A stretch of 64,000 nt of DNA, taken from positions 67,833 through 131,832 of the forward strand of contig CAYRNW010000004.1 in assembly GCA_964425745.1 (NCBI GenBank). The letters are read 5' to 3'. Origin of the DNA: an uncultured Eubacteriales bacterium. Its GTDB lineage: Bacteria > Bacillota > JAAYKD01. Positions 3,696 to 53,764 of this stretch are shown here, one piece after another (the stretch's first letter is position 1; every line of letters starts with the position of its first letter). Under the pieces are notes generated by a model. It was not told where the DNA came from. It did not search any database and worked only from the letters and a program-made list of their open reading frames with translations. A program made the translations under genes and the position numbers.

Positions 3696-3770
3696 GGGAT
3701 ACTAGCTCAGGGGTAGAGCACCCGCCTTTTAAGCGGGGTGTCGATGGTTCGATCCCATCGTATCCCACCA
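3696..3770 (+). tRNA. tRNA-Lys (anticodon TTT)
   Basis: Acceptor stem GGGATAC/GTATCCC. Anticodon loop CTTTTAA. T-arm GGTTCGATCC. 3' CCA encoded. Confidence 0.85.
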
Positions 3771-3775: not shown

Positions 3776-3851
3776 GGGAGCTTAGCTCAGTTGGTAGAGC
3801 ATCTGCCTTACAAGCAGAGGGTCAGCGGTTCGAGCCCGTTAGCTCCCACCA
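3776..3851 (+). tRNA. tRNA-Val (anticodon TAC)
   Basis: Cloverleaf GGGAGCT...AGCTCCC. Anticodon loop CTTACAA. Matches the canonical Firmicutes tRNA-Val(UAC). 3' CCA encoded. Confidence 0.85.
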
Positions 3852-5589: not shown

Positions 5590-5880
5590 TGGTATAAAAA
5601 AAGCCTTCATCCCCTACGAAGGGACAAAGGCTTAAAAAGCTTCTGCGGTACCACCCAATTTGACAACTGTGACGTTGCCCACTTTATCGCATACCATCAT
5701 ATGCGCTTCCCTAGGTAACGGAGGAAGTTGCCGTCAGTGCCTACTCTCGCAAAGAAATGCTTTACGATTTCTGACTGCCCTCACAAGTCCATTCGACAAA
5801 AGGGTTGTTACCGCACTCCCAGCAACGGCGGCTCTCTGGAAACAATCATTTTTGTGTACTCGTCTTGTTCAATGGTTTGT
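5590..5880 (-). promoter_or_regulatory. T-box riboswitch leader with Trp (UGG) specifier
   Basis: Minus-strand RNA carries the Stem I AGAGAG motif, the specifier context 'GAA UGG A' (UGG at 5789-5791) and the T-box sequence 'AAUUGGGUGGUACCGCAG' (about 5646-5664). A terminator hairpin and U-run follow (about 5596-5640), about 65 nt before the trpB ATG. Confidence 0.8.
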
Positions 5881-5884
5881 GATG

Positions 5885-13481: not shown

Positions 13482-13613
13482 ATGACCTCCATTTTGATGT
13501 AATAGTTGGGGACGGTTCTCTCCCCCTTTTTCAACCACAGAGACAGTTCATTGAAACCACAAGGGGACGGTTCTGTAAAGAACTGTCCCTGTGGTTTCCC
13601 TTGTGTTTCAAGG

Positions 13614-13870
13614 AAGAGAACCTTCCCTAAAGCCAGTCCTTAAACTCAAGAAGACATTTGAGCAAAAGATTCCTGTAGGGCGGCTTCTGACCGAAGGTCG
13701 GCAGAGCCCGAGGGAACTTTTGCGAAACTTACATAATTCTGGTAAAAAACCAAGGGAGAGAACCTTCCCTAAAGCCAGTCCTTAAACTCAAGAAGACATT
13801 TGAGCAAAAGATTCCTGTAGGGCGGCTTCTGACCGAAGGTCGGCAGAGCCCGAGGGAACTTTTGCGAAAC
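13614..13870. repeat. tandem direct repeat, two copies of about 115 bp (period about 142 bp), intergenic
   Basis: Sequence 'gagaaccttccctaaagccagtcc...gagggaacttttgcgaaac' occurs at about 13614-13728 and about 13756-13870, essentially identical. Confidence 0.8.
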
Positions 13871-14539
13871 CTATTGTGCAAAATCGCCGTGGTAGGAGAT
13901 GAGTGAAACATTGAGGACGTTTTCGATTTGAGCGATTCGGTCTGAGATTTGCAAATTTTGATCTTTCAGATACATCTCCAAGGTCATCTCGGTGGTATCC
14001 TTTTTGGTGATTTTGGAGCGGATGATGTAATTCATCTTTCCCAGTACTTCGTTAATTTCCGGCAATGCTTCGTTCTTGAAGCTGATTACCAATAAATACA
14101 CCAGTTTTCGAGGTTTCAACTTGGTCAGAAGCCAAAACGCCAATCCAACCATGAGGTTCCCGAAGAGCACCACCCAATAAATGCGAGCCCCCACGCCTAT
14201 CCCGGCTGCGACCGCCCAGAACAAGAAGATAAGATCAATCGGGTCTTTGATCGCGGTACGGAACCGAACAATCGACAACGCACCGACCATACCAAGGGAC
14301 AAGATGATGTTGGAAGAGATGGTCGCTACAATCATGGCCGAAATAATGGTCATCATCGCCACCGACACATTGAAGTTATGGCTGTAGAGCACGCCTCTGT
14401 AACAGGTGCGGTAAATCATATAGATAAACATCGCCACTGCCAAGGACATGGCCATAACAATGAGGACCCCTACCAAAGAGAGATCTGTGGCCGAACCACT
14501 CAAGAATGCATTTTTGAAAATGTCTTGAAATGTTGTCAT
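13871..14539 (-). CDS. DUF4956 multi-pass membrane protein
   Basis: Hydrophobic N-terminal two-thirds and a soluble C-terminus. Start at MTTFQDIF (RBS TAGGAGA), immediately after the VTC stop. Confidence 0.55.
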   Translation of the reverse strand: MTTFQDIFKNAFLSGSATDLSLVGVLIVMAMSLAVAMFIYMIYRTCYRGVLYSHNFNVSVAMMTIISAMIVATISSNIILSLGMVGALSIVRFRTAIKDPIDLIFLFWAVAAGIGVGARIYWVVLFGNLMVGLAFWLLTKLKPRKLVYLLVISFKNEALPEINEVLGKMNYIIRSKITKKDTTEMTLEMYLKDQNLQISDRIAQIENVLNVSLISYHGDFAQ

Positions 14540-15279
14540 AATGCTGATTCTCCTAATGCATGATATTGCATTGCCGGATTGCGCTGAAATTGAGCGTTCC
14601 GACAATAGATGTACTTGGATACTGCTTCACGGCGATGAACGGGAATTTGAACCGCTGCATGGATATAGGCGGGCAAATAATCATCGTATTTGACTTCCAA
14701 AACCAAGGTATTGGGTTCTAAAACATTGATCAAAGTCACATTTCGGTCAAAAATATTGGATGAATCGATTCCGGCTTGCAAATTCTGATCAAAGGTAATG
14801 CGGACATTCCCTTCCTCCATAACATACACTTCACGAACATAATCGACAATCACTGCCGGGGCTAGCAATTTGGTTCGCATATCCCAAAACATATCTTTGG
14901 CCATGTCGGAATTCTTTTCTAGCAAAAACTCTAAATTCTCTTTACGGATTAACCAAAAAAACTCCTCTTTACTGAGCGTAATCGATTTCTTACTGATAAA
15001 GTCTCCAAATTTCTCTTTGCGCTCCAACTTGATGTTATCGTCACTCAAGTTATAAATGCGCACCCGATATTTTTGTCTGAACTGTACTCCGGAAAGTTTT
15101 TCGAAATAGGCGGTATGATAGATATCGTCAAAATAAAGGCTGCGAATATGATACCCTTCCTCCCCGCTATTTTCATCGGGTTGCATCATGGTACTCAAGC
15201 GTGCTTTGAGGGCTGCAAATTCCTGCTCGTGAATGATGTACTTGAACTCGTGGCGCAGGGTGTTATTGAGATATTTCAT
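14536..15279 (-). CDS. VTC-domain (polyphosphate-polymerase-like, CYTH-related) protein
   Basis: About 247 aa starting at MKYLNN (RBS GGAGGGTGGG). The 'HEFKYII' N-terminus is typical of bacterial VTC domains. Confidence 0.6.
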   Translation of the reverse strand: MKYLNNTLRHEFKYIIHEQEFAALKARLSTMMQPDENSGEEGYHIRSLYFDDIYHTAYFEKLSGVQFRQKYRVRIYNLSDDNIKLERKEKFGDFISKKSITLSKEEFFWLIRKENLEFLLEKNSDMAKDMFWDMRTKLLAPAVIVDYVREVYVMEEGNVRITFDQNLQAGIDSSNIFDRNVTLINVLEPNTLVLEVKYDDYLPAYIHAAVQIPVHRREAVSKYIYCRNAQFQRNPAMQYHALGESAL

Positions 15280-16991
15280 TCTCCCACCCTCCGTTCCATG
15301 ACCACACAACCATAATAGGTATCGCCTTTGGAATCTTCTGCGACATTGCTGCTGGTTTGTCGTTGCCCATTCTGGTCTGTCGCCACAATGCGCACAAAGG
15401 TGGTCACCGAAGGCAAGCTCTCAACGAAGATCTGCCCGTCCTGAGTGGGCGCACTGGCGAACAGAATCACTTGGAAATCTGCCGATGAAGAAACCTCAAG
15501 ATGATATTGAGTCACGCGCCCGCTTTGGGCATTATCGGTCAAATAGGTAACGGAGGCACCTTCCCCTACCCGCTCCACTTTAGTAATCGTGGGAGGTGTG
15601 GGCAACTGGGCATTTGCAAGAAAGGCCTGGTAATTATATGCTACAATTTCCGGAATACTGGCAATGTACGGTTCAACATAGGTCGCAGCCCGAGGTAAGA
15701 GCCCGATTTCGGGAACACTGTAGAGAAACTTCAAAATACTCTTCTGATACGTCAATGTCTGCTGTCCAATCCATTCTGCAGAGAATACTTGATACACCTC
15801 TTCCACTTTACTGCGCAGCTTTTCCAAGTTTCCCGGCACATTTAAGTAGCGTCGATAGAGCAAATTATTATACAAAAATCCGGCGCCTTCAAAGGAAGAG
15901 GCGATTTTCTGATCATCTTTTCCCTCCAAATGATACAAAGCGTCTTCAAAAGAGGATGGCATCAGGTACCAAGTCAGTGAGTTCTGCGGTGAATACAAAA
16001 GGTACTCTTCTTCAAAGGCATTGTAATTGGAGAACAAGATATTGACCGCTGCAAACGTCAACAAGTTTTCTTCGTTAAAATACTTCCCCACCAGTTCTTC
16101 CATGGCTACAGATTCATCTTGTAACAAATCCAACATATGCAGCAATTTTTCATGGGTATCGGCATTACGAATATTCAAAACCTCTTCGAAATCGTCGCTA
16201 TTATAGGTGGAGTCGGTCTTCTCTTTTAAGGACTCCGGCTCTCTTGCGAACGTGAAATCCTCGGCACGGTATAAACTACCGTTGACATCTAAGCCATGCG
16301 CAGTCAGATATGCGGTGTTCGGTTGTTCAAGGTAGGTGTAGATTCCCATGTCTTGATATGCAGCAAGATTTTCCGAAGTCGTATCCTGTACAAACAAGCG
16401 CACAAACCCCGTCCGTAAAGACCCAATGTCTTCTAATTCTTCCAGCAAATCAAAGCCCAGCTTTTGCTTCATCCGAGATAAATCATTGCGATTCTTGAGT
16501 AAATTGATCGTCTTCATATCATTCCAGGTTCCGGCTCGATCATAAAGCTTGATCTGATACGAACGCAAGCGAATCTTTTCGGTATTGCCTTTGATGGTGA
16601 TTTTACCGTTAGCATCGGTCTCGCCAAAGCCAAAAAGTGATGCTCCAACCGATGAGGTTTCGCTACCTTCACTCATAATCACGTTGCAGAAGGGTTCTTC
16701 GCCTTCCACTAATTCGCTGTCGGTATAGTTGTTCAGATCAGAAAACGTATATTCCTTACTGAGATCACGATCAACACCCGTTTGAACGATGAGATACAAA
16801 TGCCGAATGCTGCCATCTTCATCTTTGTCATAAATACTCTTCTCTTCACTAAATGGTCTACCGTTGAGCACACTTGCCTCAATATCCCATGTTTCTTGAT
16901 CATAATAATAGGATTCGTCGTAGACATACGGGGTATTGCATCCGCTCAAGAGCAGAAGCACAAGCAAGAGCAAAAACAAACGTCGCTTCAT
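15276..16991 (-). CDS. CotH-like kinase family lipoprotein (putative), with a C-terminal FN3-like region
   Basis: Lipobox 'LLSGC'. Paralogous to the 17011-18771 product (shared block 'R(T/S)xFxRxxxxDxT...YxxxGxYTxxEQPN...HGLDxNGxLY'). The CotH call is inferred from the conserved CotH/VTC/DUF4956 neighbourhood. Confidence 0.45.
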   Translation of the reverse strand: MKRRLFLLLLVLLLLSGCNTPYVYDESYYYDQETWDIEASVLNGRPFSEEKSIYDKDEDGSIRHLYLIVQTGVDRDLSKEYTFSDLNNYTDSELVEGEEPFCNVIMSEGSETSSVGASLFGFGETDANGKITIKGNTEKIRLRSYQIKLYDRAGTWNDMKTINLLKNRNDLSRMKQKLGFDLLEELEDIGSLRTGFVRLFVQDTTSENLAAYQDMGIYTYLEQPNTAYLTAHGLDVNGSLYRAEDFTFAREPESLKEKTDSTYNSDDFEEVLNIRNADTHEKLLHMLDLLQDESVAMEELVGKYFNEENLLTFAAVNILFSNYNAFEEEYLLYSPQNSLTWYLMPSSFEDALYHLEGKDDQKIASSFEGAGFLYNNLLYRRYLNVPGNLEKLRSKVEEVYQVFSAEWIGQQTLTYQKSILKFLYSVPEIGLLPRAATYVEPYIASIPEIVAYNYQAFLANAQLPTPPTITKVERVGEGASVTYLTDNAQSGRVTQYHLEVSSSADFQVILFASAPTQDGQIFVESLPSVTTFVRIVATDQNGQRQTSSNVAEDSKGDTYYGCVVMERRVGE

Positions 16992-17010
16992 AGACTCCCT
17001 CCTCTCATGT

Positions 17011-18771
17011 TTACTTTAGGATGATCATATCTCCATCTTGAATTTGAATAGCTCGTAATCCATATTCAATGTAGGAGTTTCCTGCTGCGTCCGTCACAAC
17101 ATAGCGATCGTAACCTACCTGACGATTTCCCTTATTGTCGAATACGACGGCTGACCAGAAATAGATCCCGTTCGGTAGTTGCACAGAAGGTGTGATATTG
17201 GTCAAGCTGGTTTCTTCGCGGTATATGCTGCTGCCTGTCCGGTTTCTATAATCAGTGAAAATTGAGAATTCATAGTAGACCCGGTCGGCCTGCAAATCGG
17301 TTGACGGAGACCAATTGAAGGTGATTTTCTGATCCTCTGCTTGTTTTGGAGAACCTAAAAAAATGGGCATGGGATTCTCTTTTGTATTGTAATACAAGTT
17401 ATAACAAAAGGTTATGCGGTTTTGAAAGTCGGCAATATTGACTCGAATTTCATCCGCATCGGTGTCATCGAAGACCTCATCCAACGAGTTTCGAAATCCT
17501 GAGAGAATGGTATTGGTATAATTTTGGGTCAAGCTTTGCCAATCCTGATTCATCATGATAGCATAAAGTTCCTCGATTCGGTCATCGAGCATTTCCACAT
17601 GCGCCGGATCGCTAAAAAAGCGTTTATGTAAGGTTGTTCCCCAATAGCGAGCTAAGCCGAAGAAGTCTTTCATGCCCCTTGACATAAAGCTTTCCTCACT
17701 CAACATGCATTTATCATAGTCCCAGGGGAGAAAATACCATTTATCGCTATAGGAAGGAGAATACAATAAATAATTTCGTGACATGGTATCATAGTTATTC
17801 AAGAGCAGGTTCATGGCAACCCAGGTCAAATAATTATCGACATCAAAGTATTTCTGAAAGACCGAAGGGAAGTTGCTGCTTGGATTATTGATTTCATCCA
17901 ACATCGTTGCTAATTTGGCATTGTCGGGGTTTTCGCGAATCTTCAGCAACAAAGAAAACATGTCTTTGTCGAATTCCGGATCGTCTACAGGGACTATGTA
18001 GGGAGATTCAAAGAATTCGAAATCGGTAGGTTTATAAAGTGTTCCATTGGGATCTAAGCCATGTTCGTTCAAAAAGGTTTTGTTGGGTTGCTCAACGTGG
18101 GTATAGAGCCCATAATTCACATAACTTGCCTGAGTTTGGGTCCCGTCTTTGATATGTACCCTAAAAAACGAGGTGCGCAAGGAGACCATATCCGGGAAAT
18201 TTGCCATTTGATCAAAACTGAATTTCTGGGCCAAGCGACTCGAATCCGAGGTGTGTTTATTTAAGTTCAAAACTTGCTGCCCATGGAAGGTTCCCTGTCC
18301 GTCGTAGACTTTGATTTTGTACGACTTTTGTTCCTCTAACCTTGCACTCTGCCCTCTCAGTGAGAAGGTAGAATTGACCTGTATGTCTTCGGTATTGAAA
18401 ATCGTCTTCCCGGTATCGGGGTCTACAATATAAACCAAGGCATCCAATTGTGGGTCGGGAGCTAACCCCATAATTTCATTCATCGAAGTTAGATCGTAAA
18501 TACCGCCGGTTTCAGAATCCGTACCCTGATAAACTGTAACATAGAGATCCCAAATCTTATAGCGATCTTCTTCTTTATAAAGGGCAGGATTATCTTGAAT
18601 TCCCAGGGCATCCAATTGAGAAAAGTCGATTTCCGGGGGGATAAACACTTCTTCGGGTGGTTGATACCACCAAAGATAGTACGCAGAGACCGCTACCCCG
18701 CTCAGCAAAACCAAGGCCATGAGCCCATTACGAATTTGCCGTTTGACGTTCTGATTGAGATAAATTTTCAT
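17011..18771 (-). CDS. CotH-like kinase family protein (putative), type-II membrane anchored
   Basis: 586 aa, paralog of 15276-16991. The 5' end overlaps the pelG 3' end by about 44 nt. Confidence 0.45.
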   Translation of the reverse strand: MKIYLNQNVKRQIRNGLMALVLLSGVAVSAYYLWWYQPPEEVFIPPEIDFSQLDALGIQDNPALYKEEDRYKIWDLYVTVYQGTDSETGGIYDLTSMNEIMGLAPDPQLDALVYIVDPDTGKTIFNTEDIQVNSTFSLRGQSARLEEQKSYKIKVYDGQGTFHGQQVLNLNKHTSDSSRLAQKFSFDQMANFPDMVSLRTSFFRVHIKDGTQTQASYVNYGLYTHVEQPNKTFLNEHGLDPNGTLYKPTDFEFFESPYIVPVDDPEFDKDMFSLLLKIRENPDNAKLATMLDEINNPSSNFPSVFQKYFDVDNYLTWVAMNLLLNNYDTMSRNYLLYSPSYSDKWYFLPWDYDKCMLSEESFMSRGMKDFFGLARYWGTTLHKRFFSDPAHVEMLDDRIEELYAIMMNQDWQSLTQNYTNTILSGFRNSLDEVFDDTDADEIRVNIADFQNRITFCYNLYYNTKENPMPIFLGSPKQAEDQKITFNWSPSTDLQADRVYYEFSIFTDYRNRTGSSIYREETSLTNITPSVQLPNGIYFWSAVVFDNKGNRQVGYDRYVVTDAAGNSYIEYGLRAIQIQDGDMIILK

Positions 18772-20227
18772 GATCTTGGTTCACTTCCTCTTGACCGTTT
18801 AAGCGGTTAATCCAGGATTCTAAATTCTTGCCTTTGTTTTCTTCTTCGGGCACTTGGGAACAGAAAATAATATAATCGACCGAATTCAGGGTTTTACGCA
18901 AATATAATAATGCTGCAATCAAAGTAACGATCGAGGCAAAAACAATGCCCAGCCCATAGAATTCCGCCCCCAGCTGCACTGTCAGCAACGTAAAAATCGT
19001 ATTTAAGAGTAAAAACAAGGTTGTAATGTGTAAACAGTCGACGTAATTTTCAAAATATTGCATCAGGGTGCAGGCCAAAAACATAAAATAGGTGAAGAGA
19101 AATCCTGCTACCATATTGGGGAATACTTCAATCACGGTAGAAGAGAGACCCAGCAAAGGTAAAACCGCAATTCCCACCACAACACATATCAGCGAGATTA
19201 AGATCTGTAATTCAGCAACAAAGAAAAATTCTTGCCACATTTGGCGCTGCATCAACCGCTTTGCTCGCTCAATCTCAGCCCCGGTTTGGGTGTTGATTGC
19301 ACGGAGATAATCGCGAAAATAATCATAAAACGAAGTTTCCATGCGGACCACAAACAAAACAATAGCCGGTAAGATACTTAAAACGCCCAATGCCGTTGCC
19401 ATGTCGAATTCATCGGAAAAGATAAAGACGGAGATTGAATTTTGGGTTTTGTAATAGCCCCAAAAGATAAAGTTTTGCACATAGATCCCCAAGGTGTAAA
19501 AGGTATTAAACCAAAAAAGCGAAGGATACTTGCCCATGTAGAGCAAAAAATCAAAATAACGAGTCGAAGGAACTTGAAAATACTTCTTGACTCCCATTAA
19601 GATTCCGCCCGCAACCACAGTCATTCCAAAGGCAAATGCTCCTACTAAGGCTGTCGTCATCGAGAATTGATGATCCCAAAACCGTAAGGTTGCATAGGAG
19701 CCCAGAAAGGCAATGATCATGCCGACGATAAAACTTCTAGAAATCTGTGCGTAGTCTTTCAAAGCGGAGACATAGACCATGAGAATAAAGATAATGCCGA
19801 CCATCATATAAAGTAGATACGCAAAAATCGACAAAGCTAAGCTTAATTGTGCTTTCCACAATAGAACGACCGCAGGAATTGAAGCCAAAGAACAATAGAT
19901 TGCCAACGCTCCATAAACCGAGGCGAAAATATCCTCCGTCTTATCTCCCCACATCATATCGGCGATATACCGTGAAATTATGATGCACAAGCCACTGGTA
20001 AAAATCAGAGGGAAAACAAAGGAGTATAAGATAATCGAAGAATACAGGCGTTGATCATTCAAAGGCATATCGGAATTCAGCAAAAACAGTTTTACTGAAA
20101 TCAGAGCCCCGATTACAATCAGCAAATGCCCAATGGTGGAAAAGACCGAGTACAAAACAGCACTGAATTTTGCCGTCAGCGATTGACGTCGAAAAAGTTT
20201 TTTTAGTTCAAAGCCAATTCCTGCCAT
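18728..20227 (-). CDS. pelG: PelG polysaccharide-exporter-like membrane protein
   Basis: Starts 'MAGIGFELKKLF', the conserved PelG N-terminus. About 12 TM segments. Confidence 0.75.
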   Translation of the reverse strand: MAGIGFELKKLFRRQSLTAKFSAVLYSVFSTIGHLLIVIGALISVKLFLLNSDMPLNDQRLYSSIILYSFVFPLIFTSGLCIIISRYIADMMWGDKTEDIFASVYGALAIYCSLASIPAVVLLWKAQLSLALSIFAYLLYMMVGIIFILMVYVSALKDYAQISRSFIVGMIIAFLGSYATLRFWDHQFSMTTALVGAFAFGMTVVAGGILMGVKKYFQVPSTRYFDFLLYMGKYPSLFWFNTFYTLGIYVQNFIFWGYYKTQNSISVFIFSDEFDMATALGVLSILPAIVLFVVRMETSFYDYFRDYLRAINTQTGAEIERAKRLMQRQMWQEFFFVAELQILISLICVVVGIAVLPLLGLSSTVIEVFPNMVAGFLFTYFMFLACTLMQYFENYVDCLHITTLFLLLNTIFTLLTVQLGAEFYGLGIVFASIVTLIAALLYLRKTLNSVDYIIFCSQVPEEENKGKNLESWINRLNGQEEVNQDHENLSQSERQTANS

Positions 20228-20266: not shown

Positions 20267-21718
20267 TTAGATTTTCTCGTCTATAGGCTTTTTCTCCGGA
20301 TCTAACTCGTTATACAAGCGACGATATGCATCAATGAATCGTCCCTCAGAAAAGTAGCGAATCATGCGCTCGCGCCCTGCTTTACCGTATTGCTTTTGCA
20401 AATCCGGCGTTGTGATAATCTTAATGATATGTTCGGCAATTTGCTCGTAGTCCATGATTGGTACCAATAGACCTGCCGGTCCTAAATCATCCCCTTGTTT
20501 GCCTAAGAACAGCTCTTTACAACTGCCGACATTGGTCGAAACACAAGCAACGCCTGCCGCCATTGCTTCCATGAGTGCTAACGGTTGCCCCTCGCTAATC
20601 GAGGTCAAGACCATGACATCCATTCGTCCCACATACTCTTTGACATTGACCCGACCGGTAAATTGTAAATCGCCAATCCCCAGCTCTTTCCACAAAGCAA
20701 TACACTCCTGATAATACTCCGGGGCCTCGTCGGTAGGACCGATTAAATAAAAATAAGCATTGGGAACGCGTCGTTTCACAATATCGAAAGCATACAACAT
20801 GGTTTTGATGTCTTTGATTGGAGTCACCCGAATCACAGCTCCGACATTAAGTCTTCCTGCTTCTTCGGCTGTTTTGCCGGGTAAATTGCTAAACCCTTCT
20901 ACATTGACCCCATTGGAGATGACTTCGCAGTATAAAGGATCGGCACCCAATTCAATTTGGATGCGACGGTTGGTCTCAAACAAGGCTACAATACGATCGG
21001 CTGCCCGATATGCTCCTACGGAAAGGCTTTTGAAATAGTCAATCCAGAGCCGTTTGAAGCTTTTTTGCACCCAAGCCGCTACAATGATCTCTTCCTCTCG
21101 CTCCCTCGAATAGATTCCATGTTCTGTGATCAGCAGACTTCCTCCATATAAATGTTTTCCCATCGCTCCGGCAATCCCTGCATAGCCCGTGGACACCGTT
21201 TGATACAAATCGGCTTTGGGAGGTGGATTATTTAAAATGTGAAACAAAGTCATATACATAGACCGCATAGTCCAGACAAAGTCTACGAACCGTGTATCCC
21301 CGTATTGCTTGTTATACACCTCTTTGACAATATCATAGAAATCACTCCCTAAGAGAAAATTGCGTATGACCCGGTCTCCACGCTGAAAGAAGTCGAAAAT
21401 CATATTCCATTGATCCAGATTCGAAAGCATTAATCGGCGAATCTCATCGATCTCCCATTTGGCTGTCACGGTTGGCTTAGGAATTAAGCCTGCATTTTTT
21501 TCGCTCTTCAAGCTAATATCATTTAAAAATACTTCTTGGGCTCCTGTAACATTAGCCGGTAAGGTATATAAGAACTGTCCTTGTTTTTCCGAATCCGGCA
21601 TGATTGTATACAAAACGTATTCATGCTCCGGAAAGTTCCGAATCAATTGTTGTACCCAGGAGGACACCCCACCAACGATGTACGGATAACAGCCCTCCGC
21701 AATAAGGCATATTTTCAT
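20267..21718 (-). CDS. pelF: PelF GT4 glycosyltransferase
   Basis: 'EGCYPYIVGGVSSW' N-terminus and a GT-B/GT4 C-domain. Confidence 0.75.
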   Translation of the reverse strand: MKICLIAEGCYPYIVGGVSSWVQQLIRNFPEHEYVLYTIMPDSEKQGQFLYTLPANVTGAQEVFLNDISLKSEKNAGLIPKPTVTAKWEIDEIRRLMLSNLDQWNMIFDFFQRGDRVIRNFLLGSDFYDIVKEVYNKQYGDTRFVDFVWTMRSMYMTLFHILNNPPPKADLYQTVSTGYAGIAGAMGKHLYGGSLLITEHGIYSREREEEIIVAAWVQKSFKRLWIDYFKSLSVGAYRAADRIVALFETNRRIQIELGADPLYCEVISNGVNVEGFSNLPGKTAEEAGRLNVGAVIRVTPIKDIKTMLYAFDIVKRRVPNAYFYLIGPTDEAPEYYQECIALWKELGIGDLQFTGRVNVKEYVGRMDVMVLTSISEGQPLALMEAMAAGVACVSTNVGSCKELFLGKQGDDLGPAGLLVPIMDYEQIAEHIIKIITTPDLQKQYGKAGRERMIRYFSEGRFIDAYRRLYNELDPEKKPIDEKI

Positions 21719-21735: not shown

Positions 21736-23535
21736 CTATTTTTGTAGAATGACTTCTTCACTCTGAAGGGTTATCACATAATAATTGCCGGTGTATTTTT
21801 CAACGGTATAGCCTTCCCCCGGCAGAATCGGCCATTCGCTTCTCAGCACAAACTGCATTCCTAAATATCCCTTAGCTACCTTAATCGCAATACTATCGGC
21901 CGTTTCAGAATAAGAAAACTCCGCATTTTGACTTTGCTCTGTAATCATTGCAGCTTGGCGAATCGTCGTATGCTCTACACCCGGGTAGCTTTGGATTAAT
22001 TCGGTGGTGGCAATGAACTCCTCGGTCCATTGGGGAAATGTCATCCGACTGTTTTCCAATACCTGATTGACATTCAGTGTCATGGAAGCCATGCCTTGCG
22101 CTAATAATGTATTACGAACCGTCCAGCGCATTCCGTCAAAACACGAGACCAGGGTATAATAGTAGAGATTTTCTATAACCGGATCTCTCTCCATGTCTCG
22201 AATCAACTGATCCGGGTACAAACGGCGACAGGTCAGAGCTAGGACGGAAAGATTGGGATCTAATTCCGGTAATTTTGCTAAAACTTCCGGTGCAATTCTC
22301 CCTTGCGGGGGCATATAAGTCGTAATAGTATATTTCGGGAAAATCCGTTCCAGCGGACTTTTGGCTGCTTGCAACGATTCCTCGATACTAGCAAAGGAAG
22401 ACCAAGGGATAAACCAGCCCATCTCTTGCAGTTGACCCTCTAGACCGAAGGGTCTCATACTAAAGCCATGAAAGGCAATCTCTCCGCCGTTTTGCAAAAC
22501 TTCTGCTGCATAGAGTTTAAAATCATTGATTGGAAATTGGTTCGACTGAAAATCGGTATCGGTATTCTCGTCATACGATAACACATAGGATAACACCGGT
22601 TTGACGTGAAAGTCTCGCATCAATCGGGTTATCAGCGGCCAGATCCGGCTTTGCATCATTTTATCGTAACTTAATTTTTCAGTCTCCATCATCGCTGAAT
22701 CCTCCACCTGATAAGGCGAAGCAAACTCCTCTAACAACAGTGTTGCTGTTCCGGAAATCGGATACAGAAACGAAGCGAGGTTCTTCTGTTTTAAAGTACG
22801 ATACAACACTTCCATGATCAGACCACGACTTTGATACGAGCTGAGAAAGTCACAATTGCTGATGTATAACATACCTTTTTCAAGATTTCGAGACCAAAAC
22901 AAGGGGTTCTCATCTTCATCGTGGAGATAAACCAAACAGTCTGGACGCAATCGCACCTGATACCGCAAGGGGATCGGTGCTTCAAAGCTGTAAACCTCCC
23001 CTTTCGGTCCTATGAGACCTTCGGCATCGATCAACTGGTTACATGAAATTTTGGTGGCTTTCTCAATGAGACCAAAGCTTGTAGATATTGAAATGTACGA
23101 ATCTGAGTTTTCCGGCACAATTGGGAAATAAGCCGTGGCGCCTTCTTCCACACAATTGAAAACCTCCTGCAGTAATGGGGCTCGGTCATAGCGTGCTAGA
23201 AGGATGATAATCAAGGGGTATTCGCTCAAAGAGACCTCTTCTTCCACCGAAATCAGGTCGTATTGCAATTTCGTTTTCTTTAACAACGACTGGAAGTTTT
23301 CTAAAACGTAATCTCGATCTGCGGCCAAAGGATCATACAGCAAAGCGATTTTATCGAGTTTATGTGTGTTCTCAACACTTACACCCGAACCCATGGCTTG
23401 AAAAACCGGGTACTCCGGTGCCAGGTAACGTTCGTTGTTATAAAAAATATCCATTTTGGAAATTTGCAGGGCAATGATTACGATAAGAAACAACCCCAGC
23501 ATTAACAAGGTTTTTTGAGAACTGTTTTCTTTCAT
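21736..23535 (-). CDS. PelA-like polysaccharide deacetylase/DUF2194-type protein (putative)
   Basis: 599 aa with an N-terminal TM anchor. The call rests on position between pelE and pelF, as in Gram-positive pel operons. The family is not confirmed by motif. Confidence 0.4.
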   Translation of the reverse strand: MKENSSQKTLLMLGLFLIVIIALQISKMDIFYNNERYLAPEYPVFQAMGSGVSVENTHKLDKIALLYDPLAADRDYVLENFQSLLKKTKLQYDLISVEEEVSLSEYPLIIILLARYDRAPLLQEVFNCVEEGATAYFPIVPENSDSYISISTSFGLIEKATKISCNQLIDAEGLIGPKGEVYSFEAPIPLRYQVRLRPDCLVYLHDEDENPLFWSRNLEKGMLYISNCDFLSSYQSRGLIMEVLYRTLKQKNLASFLYPISGTATLLLEEFASPYQVEDSAMMETEKLSYDKMMQSRIWPLITRLMRDFHVKPVLSYVLSYDENTDTDFQSNQFPINDFKLYAAEVLQNGGEIAFHGFSMRPFGLEGQLQEMGWFIPWSSFASIEESLQAAKSPLERIFPKYTITTYMPPQGRIAPEVLAKLPELDPNLSVLALTCRRLYPDQLIRDMERDPVIENLYYYTLVSCFDGMRWTVRNTLLAQGMASMTLNVNQVLENSRMTFPQWTEEFIATTELIQSYPGVEHTTIRQAAMITEQSQNAEFSYSETADSIAIKVAKGYLGMQFVLRSEWPILPGEGYTVEKYTGNYYVITLQSEEVILQK

Positions 23536-24461
23536 ACTTTCGCCCCCTCCTTGCGCCCGATTTGGGGATCGATGAAATAGCGAAAGGACGCCAATCTCTC
23601 TGGAGATAATTGAACTCGACTGGTGCGAATGCGTTGAATAATCTGCTGAAACAATTCTCGCTCTCCAAGAATGTAATAAAGCTCCAAAGCCGCAAAATAA
23701 ACGATTTCGTGATCAAACGCAGTAAGACAATCTGCCATAAAGGCCTTCGCTTCTTGAGCTCTTCCCAAATCTTGCAAGTAAAGCGCAGTATCTTTATAGA
23801 AAGCCATATCCATACCCTCTGCTACACTGATTCTGTCTTCAAAAAGCTTCAAAATTAGATCACAAAATTGGCGCTGATATTTGCGACGGTTTGCCGGATC
23901 TAAAATACCACTTTCAATGTAGTCGTGTAGGGTCTTTGCATAAGAGAGTTTATTTTGTAAAACGCTCTCATCCTCCTGTACCAGTTTACTCAGTTCAATC
24001 ACGGAGTTGTCGAACTTTCGTTTGATTTCCGTAAGAGCGGAAGAAGCATAATGGGAAACTTCGGTATCGGGATCGGACAACGCTTTTTTTAGTTCTTTGA
24101 CATATTGCAAAGAGTCGCTGCTGAAAATTCTCATAACAGCATCTCGGCGAGTTGCTACATCTTCGAAAAGCAAAATATCGGTTAAGGACGCTGTATGCAG
24201 GTCACGTTGCCGATCTGCCTGAAACAAGGGGGGACCCTCTTCTTTCGAAAACTCTTTATACTGTTCAACAGCTGCCTGATTTTCTTGTGTTTTTCTCTGC
24301 ATGAGCCAAACGAAGAAGCCACCGATCAAAGGTAAAAAGAAGGCGATGAACCAATTCATCAAGAAAAATCGTTGCTTTCTCGTAATCATAATCACCAACA
24401 GAACTACGATGAGTACAACATAATAGAGGAGCAAAACCCATTGAAACGCCATTTCCAGCAT
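23532..24461 (-). CDS. PelE-like membrane/TPR-like protein (putative)
   Basis: 309 aa with two N-terminal TM helices and a helical repeat C-terminus. Translationally coupled (ATGA) to the downstream gene. Confidence 0.4.
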   Translation of the reverse strand: MLEMAFQWVLLLYYVVLIVVLLVIMITRKQRFFLMNWFIAFFLPLIGGFFVWLMQRKTQENQAAVEQYKEFSKEEGPPLFQADRQRDLHTASLTDILLFEDVATRRDAVMRIFSSDSLQYVKELKKALSDPDTEVSHYASSALTEIKRKFDNSVIELSKLVQEDESVLQNKLSYAKTLHDYIESGILDPANRRKYQRQFCDLILKLFEDRISVAEGMDMAFYKDTALYLQDLGRAQEAKAFMADCLTAFDHEIVYFAALELYYILGERELFQQIIQRIRTSRVQLSPERLASFRYFIDPQIGRKEGAKV

Positions 24462-24484: not shown

Positions 24485-26614
24485 TTACTTGTCTAAAATC
24501 TGCGACTCAATTCCGGCTTTTTGTAAACGCTCCACAACAATGGTGGCTTCGCTGGGAGAGGTTGTCAACAAGAGCGCTCCAACTCCACCCGTACTAAGCC
24601 GTCCAATTTCATCGGTGTCTCGTAGGAAGCGCCGAGTCTTAGCTGCAGTTTCTACCATCTCTTGATCAGTTGCCAGGATTTGCAATACGGTATATTCAAT
24701 ACCACTATTCTCCCAGCCCTTTTTTGCGAAGCTAATGACCTTCTGAAAATTCTCTGCTTTCATGATATCGCTCGAACCCTCAAAAGTATATTGATCCATT
24801 AAGGTTTCATATATGTGAGCGTTCCTGTAAGCATCATCCAACAAATCTTTGGTGATATGTAAAACGTTCATGTAATAGAGCGTTAATTTATCGAACGCCA
24901 TATTCTCTATCATCACCAAGACCGTGACATGATTGTTAACCGATATGGGGAGAATCACCGAGGGCATATCCGGATTCAAATATTGGTTTGTATAGAACCG
25001 GTTGTTTTGAACAATATCAAGAAGCACAGAATTTTCGGTGATGTTATACGATTTGTGGAATTTGGCGGGCTGCTCGCCGATGTAGAGTAGCCGGCGCATA
25101 AAATTACTGCCAGGCTGTCGTACAAAGAGTGAGATGTTGGGTTCGTCGGTGAGATCACGAATGGAGGTTAGCGTTCCCCAGAAAATGTCCTGTTGTGAGA
25201 GCGAGTTTAGGCTTTTAATCGAAGCATATAATTTCCCTAACCCGGATTCATACTTCAAAATTCGAGTTTCTTGCTCCATTTTAATCTGTCCTAAGTCACT
25301 ATTGATTTGGCGCATAATCTCCAATTCTTTACTCAAATCCTCGATTTGTAATTGCCTCTCGTGAATCGCAAAATTCTTCCGTTCCAATACATAGCCAATG
25401 CTCATCGCAATCACTAGTGCTTGTACCATCTGCAACAAGACATTGACATTGGAAAAAGTTGCAACAATACTATAGCCGTCCAAAAGTGAATTGATCACGT
25501 AATAGCCACTGACTAAAATAGCGGAAAAAATTCCTTGATTGATGCCAAAAACAATGGAAATGAAGATCAGGTAGATTGTGAGGTACTGAGTAATGAAGGT
25601 ATCGGAGTATCCGGTTTGCCAATACGTAAGATACGCCAATGCCGAAAACAAGGCAAGGTTTTCAATCGTTCGCCAAAATCCTGTATGGGAAGCTCTTTCT
25701 CGCTTCACAATTGCTTTTTTAACCCGTCTCGAGTCTTGATGCCACTGTACCGTTGATTCAATCATGACAGCAACATTTCGCCGCAAAACCAGACCCAATT
25801 CCATGGCGGCTTTGAGTCCATAATGAGTTGGTTCTTCTCCGCTTTTATTTCTGCCTATGAGGACTTTGCTAGGCCGAGCAAAAATCAACCCTTTGCTGTG
25901 CAGCTCTCGATATATCTCATTGGCCAACTCTTCCCCCGAAATCGGATTTGCGGGAACGATGTTGTATACGCCCTCGATACTGTCATTCAAACTACGAACA
26001 ATGGCTTCTACAGCATCTCCGGCTGCAACCAAATAGTGAAATCCATGAAGTCCCACTTGAATTTTGCCTTCTTGCAGGGCTTGCTCCACCATCTCAAATG
26101 CGACCGTCGTCGAATCCAACGTTTCATACTCTCCGGTAACCATGGGGAGCCGCAAAAAGATATTGAAAAATCGATCCTTGGGTCTGAAGCTCAAAAATGC
26201 CTGCTCACACAAGACATGCGTTCTGGCATCAATACTTAAAGGCGCTACCTCATCGGTTTCGGCTTTCAATCCTTCACCATAAACAGAAACATTTGAAAGA
26301 TAAATTATTTTCGCAGTTTCATGTAAAACCGAAAGTTCTGCAAGTGCTGTGACTTCAGTAACTTTTTTTATAGAATCCTCGATGGTCAGTACTTCTTTGC
26401 AATCGGCATACAGAATAACCTCAGGCTTTTCCGCAGCGAAAATATCTTTCAAGCTCCTGAGGTCACTGCTCACATATTTAGAATGCGGCACGTTGGCCGA
26501 GTGCTCCGGCTGCTTGTTTTGATAAACACCTACCACTCGGTAATGATCACGGTAGAAACGGATAATGCTATGGATCCCTAAAAAACGCTCGGCTCCAATG
26601 ACCATAATTTTCAT
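24485..26614 (-). CDS. pelD: PelD-like c-di-GMP receptor with N-terminal NAD-dependent epimerase domain (Gram-positive type)
   Basis: N-terminal Rossmann fold 'MKIMVIGAERFLG', central TM block, C-terminal GAF/degenerate-GGDEF region with a candidate RxxD ('RDTD'). Confidence 0.55.
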   Translation of the reverse strand: MKIMVIGAERFLGIHSIIRFYRDHYRVVGVYQNKQPEHSANVPHSKYVSSDLRSLKDIFAAEKPEVILYADCKEVLTIEDSIKKVTEVTALAELSVLHETAKIIYLSNVSVYGEGLKAETDEVAPLSIDARTHVLCEQAFLSFRPKDRFFNIFLRLPMVTGEYETLDSTTVAFEMVEQALQEGKIQVGLHGFHYLVAAGDAVEAIVRSLNDSIEGVYNIVPANPISGEELANEIYRELHSKGLIFARPSKVLIGRNKSGEEPTHYGLKAAMELGLVLRRNVAVMIESTVQWHQDSRRVKKAIVKRERASHTGFWRTIENLALFSALAYLTYWQTGYSDTFITQYLTIYLIFISIVFGINQGIFSAILVSGYYVINSLLDGYSIVATFSNVNVLLQMVQALVIAMSIGYVLERKNFAIHERQLQIEDLSKELEIMRQINSDLGQIKMEQETRILKYESGLGKLYASIKSLNSLSQQDIFWGTLTSIRDLTDEPNISLFVRQPGSNFMRRLLYIGEQPAKFHKSYNITENSVLLDIVQNNRFYTNQYLNPDMPSVILPISVNNHVTVLVMIENMAFDKLTLYYMNVLHITKDLLDDAYRNAHIYETLMDQYTFEGSSDIMKAENFQKVISFAKKGWENSGIEYTVLQILATDQEMVETAAKTRRFLRDTDEIGRLSTGGVGALLLTTSPSEATIVVERLQKAGIESQILDK

Positions 26615-40083: not shown

Positions 40084-40102
40084 GGTTTTCTACTCCTTTC
40101 CC

Positions 40103-41269: not shown

Positions 41270-41288
41270 AGGTTCTGACCTCCCTTCC

Positions 41289-43859: not shown

Positions 43860-43901
43860 CTTACACCTCAATTTAAGACACATTAAAAACATTAATTGGA
43901 T

Positions 43902-47711: not shown

Positions 47712-47730
47712 GGTTTTCTACTCCTTTCCC

Positions 47731-48900: not shown

Positions 48901-48919
48901 ATGTTGATAACCACCTTCC

Positions 48920-51487: not shown

Positions 51488-51504
51488 TGCAATTCACCTT
51501 TCTC

Positions 51505-53749: not shown

Positions 53750-53764
53750 CTCTAATTGCCCAAC

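What the first reader, a model, noticed from the sequence alone, without database searches (positions are those of the whole stretch)
13871..18771. CotH-CotH-VTC-DUF4956 cassette fused to the 3' end of the pel operon
Directly after pelG come two paralogous putative CotH-kinase-like proteins (one a lipoprotein, one membrane-anchored, one with an FN3-like tail), a VTC (polyphosphate-polymerase-like) domain protein and a DUF4956 membrane protein. The first CotH-like ORF overlaps pelG by about 44 nt. This conserved cassette of unknown function appears here to be co-transcribed with an exopolysaccharide operon. That suggests phosphorylation or polyphosphate-type modification of the Pel polymer or matrix proteins.
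Basis: partly seen in the sequence, partly recalled or inferred. Interest (0 to 1): 0.7.

Follow-up and report, generated by a model that had tools for sequence, protein, structure and literature searches.

The report
Known CotH–VTC–DUF4956 add-on of pel operon
The four genes after pelG are the accessory module already published for Gram-positive Pel biofilm operons; this copy adds one detail, because the second CotH "kinase" has lost its catalytic residues and probably partners the active one.

Summary
On the minus strand, pelG (20227..18728) is followed by CotH-1 (18771..17011), CotH-2 (16991..15276), a VTC protein (15279..14536) and a DUF4956 protein (14539..13871). All four pass Pfam thresholds. 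Junctions are a 44-nt overlap, a 19-nt gap and two ATGA overlaps. No credible terminator or promoter lies between them.

The association is not new. Whitfield et al. 2020 described cotH, a polyphosphate polymerase and DUF4956 contiguous with pelDEADAFG. A 2025 mBio study found that deleting the CotH or DUF4956 homologue in Streptococcus intermedius changes Pel level and aggregation.

I found three points that were not in the papers I could search:
- CotH-2 belongs to a lipoprotein clade that has lost the catalytic Asp/Asn/Asp triad, and it always follows an intact, membrane-anchored CotH.
- PelG and CotH are one polypeptide in several genomes.
- The CotH+VTC+DUF4956 trio also occurs without pel.

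Most likely mechanism (inferred, about 0.4): an envelope phosphorylation module docked at PelG. VTC and DUF4956 may supply polyphosphate across the membrane. The biochemistry is untested.

The parts
26611..28776 (-). Multi-TM EAL-domain protein; first gene of the apparent 10-gene operon (context). Its stop overlaps the pelD start by 4 nt.
   Evidence: Pfam EAL, E 2.9e-38. The same EAL-first layout occurs in L086.
24485..26614 (-). Epimerase-PelD fusion (context).
   Evidence: Pfam Epimerase at residues 3-219, E 1.2e-12. Whitfield 2020 reports that this fusion correlates with the accessory genes.
23532..24461 (-). PelE-like protein (context).
   Evidence: Assigned by position and by weak HEAT/TPR-like Pfam hits. 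An iterated HMM recovers it in 50 ORFs of the surveyed loci.
21736..23535 (-). PelA deacetylase-like protein, DUF2194 (context).
   Evidence: Pfam PF09960, E 6.4e-43.
20267..21718 (-). PelF glycosyltransferase (context).
   Evidence: Pfam DUF3492 plus GT1. NCBIfam PelF equivalog, 367 bits against a cut-off of 100.
18728..20227 (-). PelG.
   Evidence: Pfam PF16933, E 8.4e-110, full length.
18728..18771 (-). 44-nt pelG/cotH-1 overlap; cotH-1 is in the +1 frame relative to pelG.
   Evidence: Read from the sequence. Conserved in L085 and L001. The hairpin at 18726-18714 is no better than shuffled sequence: z -0.86, 45 of 200 shuffles fold as well.
17011..18771 (-). CotH-1: signal-anchored, extracytoplasmic CotH kinase with an intact catalytic D-N-D triad and an FN3-like C-terminal tail.
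   Evidence: Pfam CotH, E 1.5e-48. Matches 5JD9 at E 3.3e-12. Triad alignment. TM helix at residues 16-34.
15276..16991 (-). CotH-2: lipoprotein CotH paralog whose triad is degenerate (N-E-S), so a predicted pseudokinase; FN3-like tail.
   Evidence: Pfam CotH, E 5.5e-33. Triad. AF2 model pLDDT 87.4. Foldseek to 5JDA, E 1.7e-14, TM 0.81, and FN3 hits for residues about 469-565.
14536..15279 (-). VTC/TTM polyphosphate-polymerase-like protein; cytoplasmic, with no hydrophobic segment.
   Evidence: Pfam VTC, E 2.2e-37. K13, R72, R74 and K88 align to Vtc4 K200, R264, R266 and K281 and are invariant in 19 homologues. No TM segment.
13871..14539 (-). DUF4956 membrane protein: five hydrophobic helices plus a C-terminal ACT-like domain.
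13753..13770 (-). First terminator-like hairpin plus T-run downstream of the operon.
   Evidence: Consensus scan; a weak 5-bp stem.

Best explanation
Identity (shown, confidence about 0.95). These four genes are the 'second accessory gene group' of Gram-positive pel operons: cotH, a polyphosphate-polymerase-like VTC gene and DUF4956. Here they form the 3' end of a 10-gene unit, EAL-pelD(epimerase fusion)-pelE-pelA_DA-pelF-pelG-cotH1-cotH2-VTC-DUF4956. This copy has no DUF4832 hydrolase gene and has a duplicated cotH.

Mechanism (inferred, confidence about 0.4). The trio is a self-contained envelope phosphorylation module that has been docked onto the Pel export platform.
1. The cytoplasmic VTC protein is a triphosphate-tunnel enzyme that keeps the Vtc4 catalytic Lys/Arg residues. 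It would make polyphosphate from ATP.
2. DUF4956 has five TM helices in an N-out/C-in orientation, an invariant basic motif at the cytoplasmic face and an ACT-like regulatory domain. It would gate or conduct that product to the outer face of the membrane.
3. The membrane-anchored, catalytically intact CotH-1 sits beside PelG, and is literally fused to PelG in some genomes. It would phosphorylate an extracytoplasmic substrate, either nascent Pel or a Pel-machinery or matrix ectodomain.
4. The lipoprotein CotH-2 has lost the catalytic Asp/Asn/Asp. It would act as a pseudokinase partner or scaffold, in the way Fam20A serves Fam20C.
The net effect would be to tune how much Pel is made and how adhesive it is, not to make Pel itself.
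For: Shown:
- Domain assignments.
- Translationally coupled junctions and no significant terminator or promoter.
- The same gene order in the nearest relatives and in Clostridia, Bacilli and Collinsella.
- Published genetics: deleting the S. intermedius CotH homologue lowers Pel, deleting the DUF4956 homologue raises Pel, and both cut aggregation by more than 50% in sputum medium.
- PelG-CotH single-polypeptide fusions in five independent sequences, each with a full PelG domain, a basic linker, a TM helix and a full CotH domain.
- CotH proteins of this neighbourhood carry a lipobox or a signal anchor, both in pel loci and elsewhere. VTC has no hydrophobic segment.
- VTC keeps K13, R72, R74 and K88, equivalent to Vtc4 K200, R264, R266 and K281. 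All are invariant in 19 homologues. PDB entry 9umg carries Ala at the two Arg positions.
- CotH-1 keeps D/N/D. CotH-2 has N/E/S. B. subtilis D228Q and D251A are catalytically inactive.
- Every tandem pair examined is an intact CotH followed by a degenerate one.
- CotH+VTC+DUF4956 also occurs without pel in at least 17 loci. VTC and DUF4956 therefore travel with an extracytoplasmic CotH rather than with Pel as such.

Inferred:
- An extracytoplasmic kinase needs a phosphoryl donor outside the cell, and the only constant partners are a cytoplasmic polyP-polymerase-like enzyme and a membrane protein.
- The carbohydrate-binding-type modules on non-pel CotHs (CHB_HEX_C, Fn3_assoc) and the LysM domains on some pseudo-CotHs point to glycan-rich substrates.
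Against: - The S. intermedius VTC deletion (SIR_1593) showed no aggregation phenotype, unlike the CotH and DUF4956 deletions. That argues against a strict VTC to DUF4956 to CotH pathway.
- I found no report of any bacterial VTC-domain protein making polyphosphate.
- To my knowledge no kinase-fold enzyme is known to use polyphosphate as a donor.
- DUF4956 has no demonstrated transport activity. Its nearest structural relatives are ACT regulatory domains and the C-terminal domain of MgtC, which is a regulator and not a channel.
- DUF4956 is unrelated in sequence to the DUF202 TM domains of the yeast VTC channel.
- Phosphorylated Pel has never been reported.
- Operon status rests on gene structure alone, with no RNA data.
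Confidence: 0.4

Rival explanations
1. Regulatory protein-kinase model (the hypothesis of Whitfield et al.). CotH-1 is a Ser/Thr protein kinase that switches Pel synthesis or export by phosphorylating a component of the Pel machinery. VTC and DUF4956 act separately on intracellular phosphate/polyphosphate or energy homeostasis, in an MgtC-like way, and export nothing.
For: - CotH is a proven protein kinase in spores.
- The authors proposed regulation by phosphorylation.
- The DUF4956 C-terminus resembles the ACT-like MgtC C-terminal domain, and MgtC acts as a regulator.
- The CotH and DUF4956 deletions move Pel levels in opposite directions.
- The PelG-CotH fusion fits a machinery substrate.
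Against: - The kinase domain is predicted to be outside the membrane, where ATP is scarce, so a donor problem remains.
- The model does not explain why VTC and DUF4956 accompany extracytoplasmic CotH in loci with no pel genes.
- This organism already has c-di-GMP control, with an EAL gene in the operon and a PelD, so an extra switch is not obviously needed.
Confidence: 0.25
2. Polyphosphate-as-matrix model. VTC and DUF4956 export polyphosphate, which acts as the polyanionic partner that cross-links cationic, partly deacetylated Pel, much as eDNA does in Pseudomonas. The CotH proteins mainly bind or organise the polymer at the surface.
For: - VTC catalytic residues are conserved.
- The membrane partner is always adjacent (81 DUF4956 ORFs were detected across the 84 surveyed loci).
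- Pel's cationic nature and its ionic binding to eDNA are established knowledge, not tested here.
- The DUF4956 deletion gives more Pel but less aggregation, as expected if a cross-linker were missing.
- FN3, LysM and CHB_HEX_C binding modules occur on CotH proteins.
Against: - The VTC deletion had no aggregation phenotype.
- The intact D-N-D triad is conserved in 110 of the best 150 cluster representatives, which argues that catalysis by CotH matters.
- The trio occurs without any cationic polysaccharide locus nearby.
Confidence: 0.15
3. Mere adjacency. The cassette is an independent module that happens to lie next to pel, with no functional link.
For: - The trio exists on its own in many genomes.
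- None of the four accessory genes was required for Pel production in S. intermedius.
Against: - The pelG-cotH order is conserved in two phyla.
- The reading frames overlap by 44 nt.
- PelG-CotH fusions exist.
- Published deletion phenotypes affect Pel level and aggregation.
Confidence: 0.05

Closest known systems
Accessory gene group 2 of Gram-positive pel operons (Whitfield et al. 2020, PMC7112168; S. intermedius SIR_1594-SIR_1591, PMC12345266)
   Same: [quoted passage not shown]
- PelD carries the N-terminal epimerase domain that these authors found to correlate with the accessory genes.
- CotH has an FN3-like tail, and DUF4956 combines a TM domain with an ACT domain.
   Different: - There is no DUF4832 glycoside hydrolase gene in this operon.
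- Two CotH genes are present instead of one, and the second is catalytically degenerate.
- An EAL gene is translationally coupled in front of pelD, so c-di-GMP control is probably present here, unlike in streptococci.
Bacillus CotH spore-coat kinase (PDB 5JD9/5JDA)
   Same: - Same kinase-like fold: the CotH-2 model matches 5JDA at TM 0.81, and CotH-1 hits 5JD9 at E 3.3e-12.
- CotH-1 keeps the residues that align with D228 and D251, whose mutation inactivates B. subtilis CotH.
   Different: - Spore CotH works in the mother-cell cytoplasm on coat proteins CotB and CotG.
- These proteins are membrane- or lipid-anchored outside the cell.
- They carry an extra N-terminal beta domain and a C-terminal FN3-like domain.
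- They are encoded in a polysaccharide operon.
Eukaryotic VTC complex (Vtc4 catalytic tunnel domain plus TM channel)
   Same: - VTC-family triphosphate-tunnel domain with the Vtc4 K200, R264, R266 and K281 equivalents.
- It is always paired with a membrane protein, as expected for synthesis coupled to translocation.
   Different: - No SPX domain.
- No DUF202-type TM helices, and the catalytic protein itself is soluble.
- The membrane partner (DUF4956) is a separate protein unrelated in sequence.
- Activity has never been shown for a bacterial member.
Fam20A (pseudokinase) / Fam20C (secretory-pathway kinase) pair
   Same: - Works like it only: an extracytoplasmic atypical kinase is paired with a paralog that has lost its catalytic residues.
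- The two are co-encoded and co-conserved.
   Different: - This is an analogy, not a demonstrated homology.
- No interaction or activation data exist.
MgtC / YhiD / SapB family
   Same: - Some database entries name DUF4956 homologues 'YhiD'.
   Different: - No Pfam MgtC hit, even at E up to 10.
- No sequence match to solved MgtC domains.
C. perfringens NELoc-2 (CP4_0460-0468, PMC2879425)
   Same: VTC-domain genes, small membrane proteins annotated 'tubulin/FtsZ' (probably DUF4956; I did not verify this) and a CotH gene lie together.
   Different: - The cluster is next to a HEAT-repeat protein and a GT2 'chitin synthase', not pel.
- It shows that the module can accompany another polysaccharide synthase.

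Membership tests
Gram-positive pel operon with cotH/PPP/DUF4956 accessory genes (Whitfield 2020) | pelD, pelE, pelA_DA, pelF and pelG present, co-oriented and in that order | tested here: met
   Pfam and NCBIfam. PelE was assigned by position and by an iterated HMM only.
Gram-positive pel operon with cotH/PPP/DUF4956 accessory genes (Whitfield 2020) | cotH, VTC ('PPP') and DUF4956 contiguous with, and downstream of, pelG | tested here: met
   Junctions: -44, +19, -4 and -4 nt.
Gram-positive pel operon with cotH/PPP/DUF4956 accessory genes (Whitfield 2020) | N-terminal epimerase domain on PelD | tested here: met
   PF01370 at residues 3-219 of the 709-aa protein.
Gram-positive pel operon with cotH/PPP/DUF4956 accessory genes (Whitfield 2020) | DUF4832 glycoside hydrolase gene in the cluster (streptococcal/clostridial form) | tested here: not met
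   A tandem repeat follows the DUF4956 stop. The next gene's ortholog in L085 hits Pfam HutD. No DUF4832 was seen among the window ORFs I scanned. The authors themselves describe variants without it.
CotH kinase family (PF08757) | HMM match above the gathering threshold | tested here: met
   CotH-1 166 bits and CotH-2 115 bits against a cut-off of 23.8.
CotH kinase family (PF08757) | Catalytic Asp, Mg-binding Asn and Mg-binding Asp (B. cereus chain positions 224/229/247; B. subtilis D228 and D251) | tested here: met
   Met for CotH-1 only: D-N-D. I mapped B. subtilis D228 and D251 by the 23-residue spacing and the conserved motifs; this mapping is an inference.
CotH kinase family (PF08757) | The same catalytic triad in CotH-2 | tested here: not met
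   N-E-S. The whole CotH-2 clade (20 homologues at 39% identity or more) is degenerate. CotH-2 has the CotH fold but is not predicted to be an active kinase.
CotH kinase family (PF08757) | Kinase-like fold | tested here: met
   CotH-2 AF2 model (pLDDT 87.4) against 5JDA: E 1.7e-14, TM 0.81. CotH-1 was not modelled.
CotH kinase family (PF08757) | Phosphotransferase activity and substrate | not testable with these tools
   Needs biochemistry.
VTC / triphosphate-tunnel polyphosphate polymerase (PF09359) | HMM match above threshold; a VTC-type rather than a CYTH-type tunnel domain | tested here: met
   129 bits against a cut-off of 23, covering profile positions 2-230 of 235. No CYTH hit.
VTC / triphosphate-tunnel polyphosphate polymerase (PF09359) | Tunnel residues equivalent to Vtc4 K200, R264, R266 and K281 | tested here: met
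   K13, R72, R74 and K88 are invariant in alignment A1 and align to Vtc4. I recalled the Vtc4 residue numbers from Hothorn 2009; the R264A/R266A sequence of entry 9umg supports them.
VTC / triphosphate-tunnel polyphosphate polymerase (PF09359) | C-terminal half of the tunnel (Vtc4 E426, S457, K458 region) | tested here: inconclusive
   The HMMER alignment to Vtc4 stops at profile position 169. E195, K197, S221 and K222 are invariant among bacterial homologues, but I did not map them to Vtc4.
VTC / triphosphate-tunnel polyphosphate polymerase (PF09359) | SPX domain and DUF202-type TM channel subunits of the eukaryotic complex | tested here: not met
   The protein is a 247-aa soluble single domain. 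Its partner is DUF4956. It may work like VTC but is not a member of that complex type.
VTC / triphosphate-tunnel polyphosphate polymerase (PF09359) | Polyphosphate synthesis from ATP | not testable with these tools
   The papers I searched contain no biochemical report for a bacterial member.
DUF4956 (PF16316) / MgtC-like | PF16316 match above threshold | tested here: met
   33.6 bits against a cut-off of 30.6. 7,998 homologues with E up to 1e-5 among the 8,000 candidates scored.
DUF4956 (PF16316) / MgtC-like | C-terminal ACT-like (ferredoxin-fold) domain, as in MgtC | tested here: met
   [not shown]
DUF4956 (PF16316) / MgtC-like | Sequence membership of the MgtC family (PF02308) | tested here: not met
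   No MgtC hit at E up to 10. A profile search of PDB sequences found nothing.

The most novel reading that the evidence does not exclude
CotH + VTC + DUF4956 is a dedicated bacterial system for phosphorylation outside the cytoplasmic membrane that brings its own energy supply.
- VTC/DUF4956 would be a prokaryotic polyphosphate synthase-translocase, a functional analogue of the eukaryotic VTC complex built from an unrelated membrane subunit.
- It would feed phosphoanhydride donor to a surface CotH kinase that is docked on, and in some genomes fused to, the PelG exporter.
- A pseudokinase paralog would control that kinase.
- The kinase would phosphorylate the nascent Pel polysaccharide. Pel from these Gram-positive bacteria would then be a phosphorylated polymer, chemically different from Pseudomonas Pel.
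Probability: 0.2. Interest if true: 0.85.

Novelty: new member of a known kind. Interest (0 to 1): 0.4.

Why it matters
Pel is a widespread biofilm and virulence polysaccharide. The role of the cotH/VTC/DUF4956 genes attached to Gram-positive pel operons is an acknowledged open question. This locus does not open that question, but it sharpens it in three ways.
- A kinase/pseudokinase pair predicts a regulated enzyme rather than a structural protein.
- PelG-CotH fusions place the enzyme at the polymer exit site.
- The pel-independent trios show that VTC and DUF4956 serve CotH, not Pel.

If polyphosphate export to an extracellular kinase were demonstrated, it would be a new way for bacteria to power chemistry outside the membrane. 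It would also be the first function for bacterial VTC-domain proteins.

Tried and rejected
1. Terminator between pelG and cotH-1. The consensus scan flags a 5-bp hairpin at 18726-18714, right after the pelG stop. It folds no better than shuffled sequence (z -0.86, 45 of 200 shuffles) and is not conserved in L085 or L001. Rejected. Promoter-like and terminator-like hits in the region are at chance level: 36 found against 30.9±5.3 expected, and 19 against 17.9±4.1.
2. FN3 tails by HMM. Pfam gives no FN3 hit on either tail, even at E up to 10. Only the structure comparison supports an FN3-like fold, and with weak E-values.
3. DUF4956 as a sequence member of MgtC, or as a relative of any solved protein. 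No hit.
4. Foldseek against AFDB for the DUF4956 model. That library was unavailable.
5. My iterated CotH HMM drifted onto Lamin-tail (LTD) domains and wrongly called CotH in L014 and L022. Pfam corrected this. A kinase-domain-only HMM built from pel-type CotHs was in turn too insensitive for the LTD-type CotHs.
6. The original CotH kinase paper (Nguyen 2016) is not held. The catalytic residues were taken from PMC7821199 and mapped by spacing and motif.
7. Programmed +1 frameshifting across the 44-nt overlap to produce a PelG-CotH fusion. I considered this only as an idea; there is no slippery site or other evidence.
8. NCBIfam has no model for any of the four cassette proteins.

Full report
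**What is in the sequence.** All genes of interest are on the minus strand. Ten co-oriented ORFs run from 28776 down to 13871:
- an EAL protein (28776..26611)
- an epimerase-PelD fusion (26614..24485)
- a PelE-like protein (24461..23532)
- the PelA deacetylase-like DUF2194 protein (23535..21736)
- PelF (21718..20267)
- PelG (20227..18728)
- CotH-1 (18771..17011, 586 aa)
- CotH-2 (16991..15276, 571 aa)
- a VTC protein (15279..14536, 247 aa)
- a DUF4956 protein (14539..13871, 222 aa)

PelF also meets the NCBIfam equivalog, at 367 bits against a cut-off of 100.

**Junctions and operon status.** The pelG stop is TAA at 18730-18728. The cotH-1 ATG is at 18771, preceded by GAGGAAG, which gives exactly the 44-nt overlap reported. 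The other junctions are as follows:
- cotH-1 and cotH-2 are 19 nt apart, with a strong GAGAGGAGGGAG ribosome-binding site.
- cotH-2/VTC and VTC/DUF4956 both form ATGA stop-start overlaps.
- The mechanical TTG starts listed for VTC (15309) and DUF4956 (14605) are upstream of the starts supported by Shine-Dalgarno sequences and by the N-termini of homologues.

Promoter-like and terminator-like matches across 12.5-30 kb are at chance frequency: 36 found against 30.9±5.3 expected, and 19 against 17.9±4.1. One weak hairpin falls right after the pelG stop. It is no more stable than shuffled sequence (z -0.86) and is not conserved in relatives. The RBS, the ATG and the overlap are conserved. The first terminator-like element after the cluster lies at 13770-13753, inside a 142-nt tandem duplication. 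Co-transcription is thus well supported by structure, but no RNA data were available.

**It is already known.** Whitfield et al. 2020 (PMC7112168) defined a 'second accessory gene group', consisting of CotH, a polyphosphate polymerase, DUF4956 and DUF4832. It is contiguous with pelDEADAFG in streptococci and clostridia, with a variant in bifidobacteria. They noted that it correlates with an epimerase domain on PelD, and they proposed that CotH regulates Pel by phosphorylation.

The 2025 mBio study of S. intermedius (PMC12345266) deleted each accessory gene:
- The CotH deletion (SIR_1594) made less Pel.
- The DUF4956 deletion (SIR_1592) made more Pel.
- Both lost more than half of their aggregation in sputum medium.
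- The VTC deletion (SIR_1593) and the DUF4832 deletion (SIR_1591) showed no aggregation change.

The window matches this pattern, including the epimerase-PelD fusion.

**The two CotH proteins differ.** CotH-1 hits B. cereus CotH (5JD9) at E 3.3e-12 and CotH-2 at 4.2e-5. B. subtilis CotH is inactivated by D228Q or D251A (PMC7821199). In the B. cereus chain, the Asp of NFDG and the first Asp of PWDYD are 23 residues apart, the same spacing. An Asn lies five residues after the first Asp, as in the HRDxxxxN loop of canonical kinases (this mapping is an inference).

CotH-1 has D-N-D at these positions. CotH-2 has N-E-S. The pattern is systematic:
- Every single-copy CotH in 40-odd non-redundant pel loci is D-N-D.
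- In every tandem pair (the window, L001/2, L005, L006, L085, L086, L087) the first copy is D-N-D with a signal anchor. The second is degenerate, and it has a lipoprotein N-terminus in the window and in every relative except L006, whose second copy ends in SSC.
- In L003 and L009 a degenerate copy lies after DUF4956 instead.
- L018 is an exception. Its second CotH belongs to a different (CHB_HEX_C) class and is intact.

The 20 closest homologues of CotH-2 (39% identity or more) all lack PWDYD. An exhaustive phmmer search of 1.84 billion cluster representatives returned only 459 relatives. Of the best 150, 110 are D-N-D and about 37 have a substituted triad. Some of the degenerate ones carry LysM domains.

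The AlphaFold model of CotH-2 is confident (pLDDT 87.4, pTM 0.87). It superposes on 5JDA (E 1.7e-14, TM 0.81), and residues about 469-565 match FN3 domains. CotH-1 and CotH-2 are collinear to the C-terminus (27% identity, E 1e-58), so both have that tail. Pfam FN3 models do not detect it. I found no paper that describes CotH pseudokinases in this context.

**VTC and DUF4956.** The VTC protein has no hydrophobic segment. In an alignment of 19 homologues (41-76% identity to the window protein), R9, E11, K13, R68, K70, R72, R74, E86, K88, E195, K197, S221 and K222 are invariant. HMMER alignments to Vtc4 place K13, R72, R74 and K88 on Vtc4 K200, R264, R266 and K281. PDB entry 9umg carries Ala at both Arg positions.

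**Comparative genomics.** The window's own proteins are rare in databases. The closest VTC homologues are 91% and 82% identical, both on short contigs. The next, at 76%, lies on a 2.9-Mb contig with the identical gene order. A 94%-identical DUF4956 lies on a syntenic JGI contig (L085). The best GTDB representative is a Trichococcus MAG at 61%. The source is therefore probably an uncultured Bacillota, perhaps in Lactobacillales (inference).

I surveyed 84 loci around VTC homologues. These are the 80 most similar in GTDB plus four others, and about 45 are redundant Collinsella.
- 58 carry pel genes followed by CotH-VTC-DUF4956. They include Cytobacillus, Paenibacillus, Clostridium, Faecalibacterium, Roseburia and Collinsella.
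- In L082, and apparently in L013, the trio precedes a PelF-like gene. Downstream of that gene L082 also has an HD-GYP protein and a GH114 hydrolase.
- At least 17 loci have the trio with no pel gene in the available flanks. Ten encode a roughly 1000-aa LTDx3-CHB_HEX_C/Fn3_assoc-CotH protein next to VTC and DUF4956. Six encode VTC-DUF4956-CotH, five of them with a lipoprotein CotH. One more is L021. All of these that I aligned (eleven) keep D-N-D.
- Five of them (L020, L037, L049, L068, L073) have 8 kb or more of pel-free flank on both sides.

This qualifies the statement in the mBio paper that the synteny is not found outside pel loci. The C. perfringens NELoc-2 table shows VTC, a small membrane protein and CotH beside a GT2 synthase, which is consistent with this. 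Where start codons are clear, these CotHs have a lipobox or a signal anchor.

**PelG-CotH fusions.** Five independent sequences encode a full PelG domain (Pfam positions 1-452) and a full CotH domain in one polypeptide. They are P0277, P0356, P0369 and the ORFs L034:6889-9999 (Paenibacillus sp. PL91) and L015:6889-9999. In the three whose linker I inspected (P0277, L034, L015), the domains are joined by a basic linker, one TM helix and a lipobox-like LSAC. This Rosetta-stone fusion argues that CotH works physically at PelG. It also fixes the predicted topology: PelG C-terminus inside, CotH outside. In the window, cotH-1 is in the +1 frame relative to pelG across the 44-nt overlap. A 1-nt indel would convert one form into the other (inference).

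**Mechanism.**

Shown:
- domain identities and conserved catalytic residues
- predicted locations
- translational coupling
- conserved neighbourhood and gene fusions
- the published deletion phenotypes

Inferred: the trio is an autonomous envelope phosphorylation module recruited to Pel.

I favour a model (about 0.4) in which VTC makes polyphosphate. DUF4956 gates or conducts it. CotH-1 at PelG phosphorylates nascent Pel or an ectodomain. CotH-2 acts as a Fam20A-like pseudokinase partner.

Reasoning:
- An extracytoplasmic kinase needs a donor outside the cell.
- Its only constant genomic partners are a cytoplasmic polyP-polymerase-like enzyme and a membrane protein.
- Glycan-binding-type modules on related CotHs hint at carbohydrate substrates.

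Main counter-evidence:
- The S. intermedius VTC deletion had no phenotype.
- No biochemistry exists for bacterial VTC or DUF4956.
- DUF4956 resembles a regulator (MgtC) rather than a channel.

Rivals:
- a regulatory protein kinase with an intracellular role for VTC and DUF4956 (0.25)
- exported polyP as an anionic cross-linker of cationic Pel (0.15)
- functionally unlinked adjacency (0.05)

**Verdict.** The finding is real, correctly located and correctly annotated, but it rediscovers a published operon architecture. This locus is a new member, from a poorly sampled lineage, of a known kind. The features I could not find in the searched papers came from the follow-up: a conserved kinase/pseudokinase CotH pair, PelG-CotH fusions, and the independence of the trio from pel. 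Interest is moderate at 0.4. The biochemical function remains an open and testable question, but a Pel specialist would not be surprised by the association itself.

Noticed in passing
window 13609-13873: A 142-nt unit is tandemly duplicated (1.8 copies, 98-99% identical), starting right at the DUF4956 stop codon. It occurs nowhere else in the window. The syntenic relative L085 has only a 172-nt spacer at this position. The first copy holds the only terminator-like hairpin after the operon (13770-13753).
   Followed up: partly
window 26611-28776 (-) and 34846-36963 (-): Two c-di-GMP proteins. A multi-TM EAL protein overlaps the pelD start by 4 nt, and the same EAL-first layout occurs in L086. 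A PAS-GGDEF-EAL protein lies about 6 kb upstream of the operon. The PelD C-terminus contains an RDTD (RxxD-type) motif. I did not test whether it binds c-di-GMP.
   Followed up: partly
L034:6889-9999, L015:6889-9999; proteins P0277, P0356, P0369: PelG and CotH are encoded as a single polypeptide of about 1040 aa, with a full PelG domain and a full CotH domain. The three sequences inspected (P0277, L034, L015) have a basic linker, a TM helix and a lipobox-like motif between the two domains.
   Followed up: yes
L016, L020, L025, L030, L031, L033, L050, L051, L053, L084: A second class of the trio, with no pel genes nearby: CotH proteins of about 1000 aa with up to three Lamin-tail domains, a CHB_HEX_C/Fn3_assoc module and an intact D-N-D triad, next to VTC and DUF4956. 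These are mostly Christensenellales and Clostridia MAGs.
   Followed up: partly
L014:8320-11370 and L022:8263-11363: A variant without CotH. A 360-aa membrane-anchored protein with two Lamin-tail domains is followed by a VTC protein with an N-terminal extension of about 190 aa and unknown function, then DUF4956. The cluster sits beside comEC and holA.
   Followed up: no
proteins P0266 and P0307: CotH paralogs with degenerate triads (Q-D-H and K-D-D) carry two C-terminal LysM domains. This suggests pseudo-CotH proteins anchored to peptidoglycan.
   Followed up: no
L082:8296-20622 (Dethiobacter MAG); L013 is similar: A rearranged pel-like locus. CotH-VTC-DUF4956 comes first, followed by a PelF-like glycosyltransferase, three proteins with no Pfam hit (415, 537 and 600 aa), an HD-GYP protein and a GH114 hydrolase. 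No recognisable PelG is present.
   Followed up: partly
window 39358-44993 and 46980-52578, with 45824-46696 between them: Two paralogous four-gene modules, each with a protein of about 860 aa. The one I scanned (41289-43892) has FtsX permease domains. They flank an IstB/IS21-type ATPase gene.
   Followed up: no
window 52000-56600: GC falls to 0.34-0.35, against 0.41-0.48 elsewhere. The ORFs at 52646-53749, 53765-54931 and 55491-56543 have no Pfam hit. The region may have been acquired horizontally.
   Followed up: no
window 5617-5881 (-), 3696-3767 (+) and 3776-3848 (+): A T-box leader (103 bits) lies upstream of the gene at 4310-5530. Two tRNA genes are also present.
   Followed up: no
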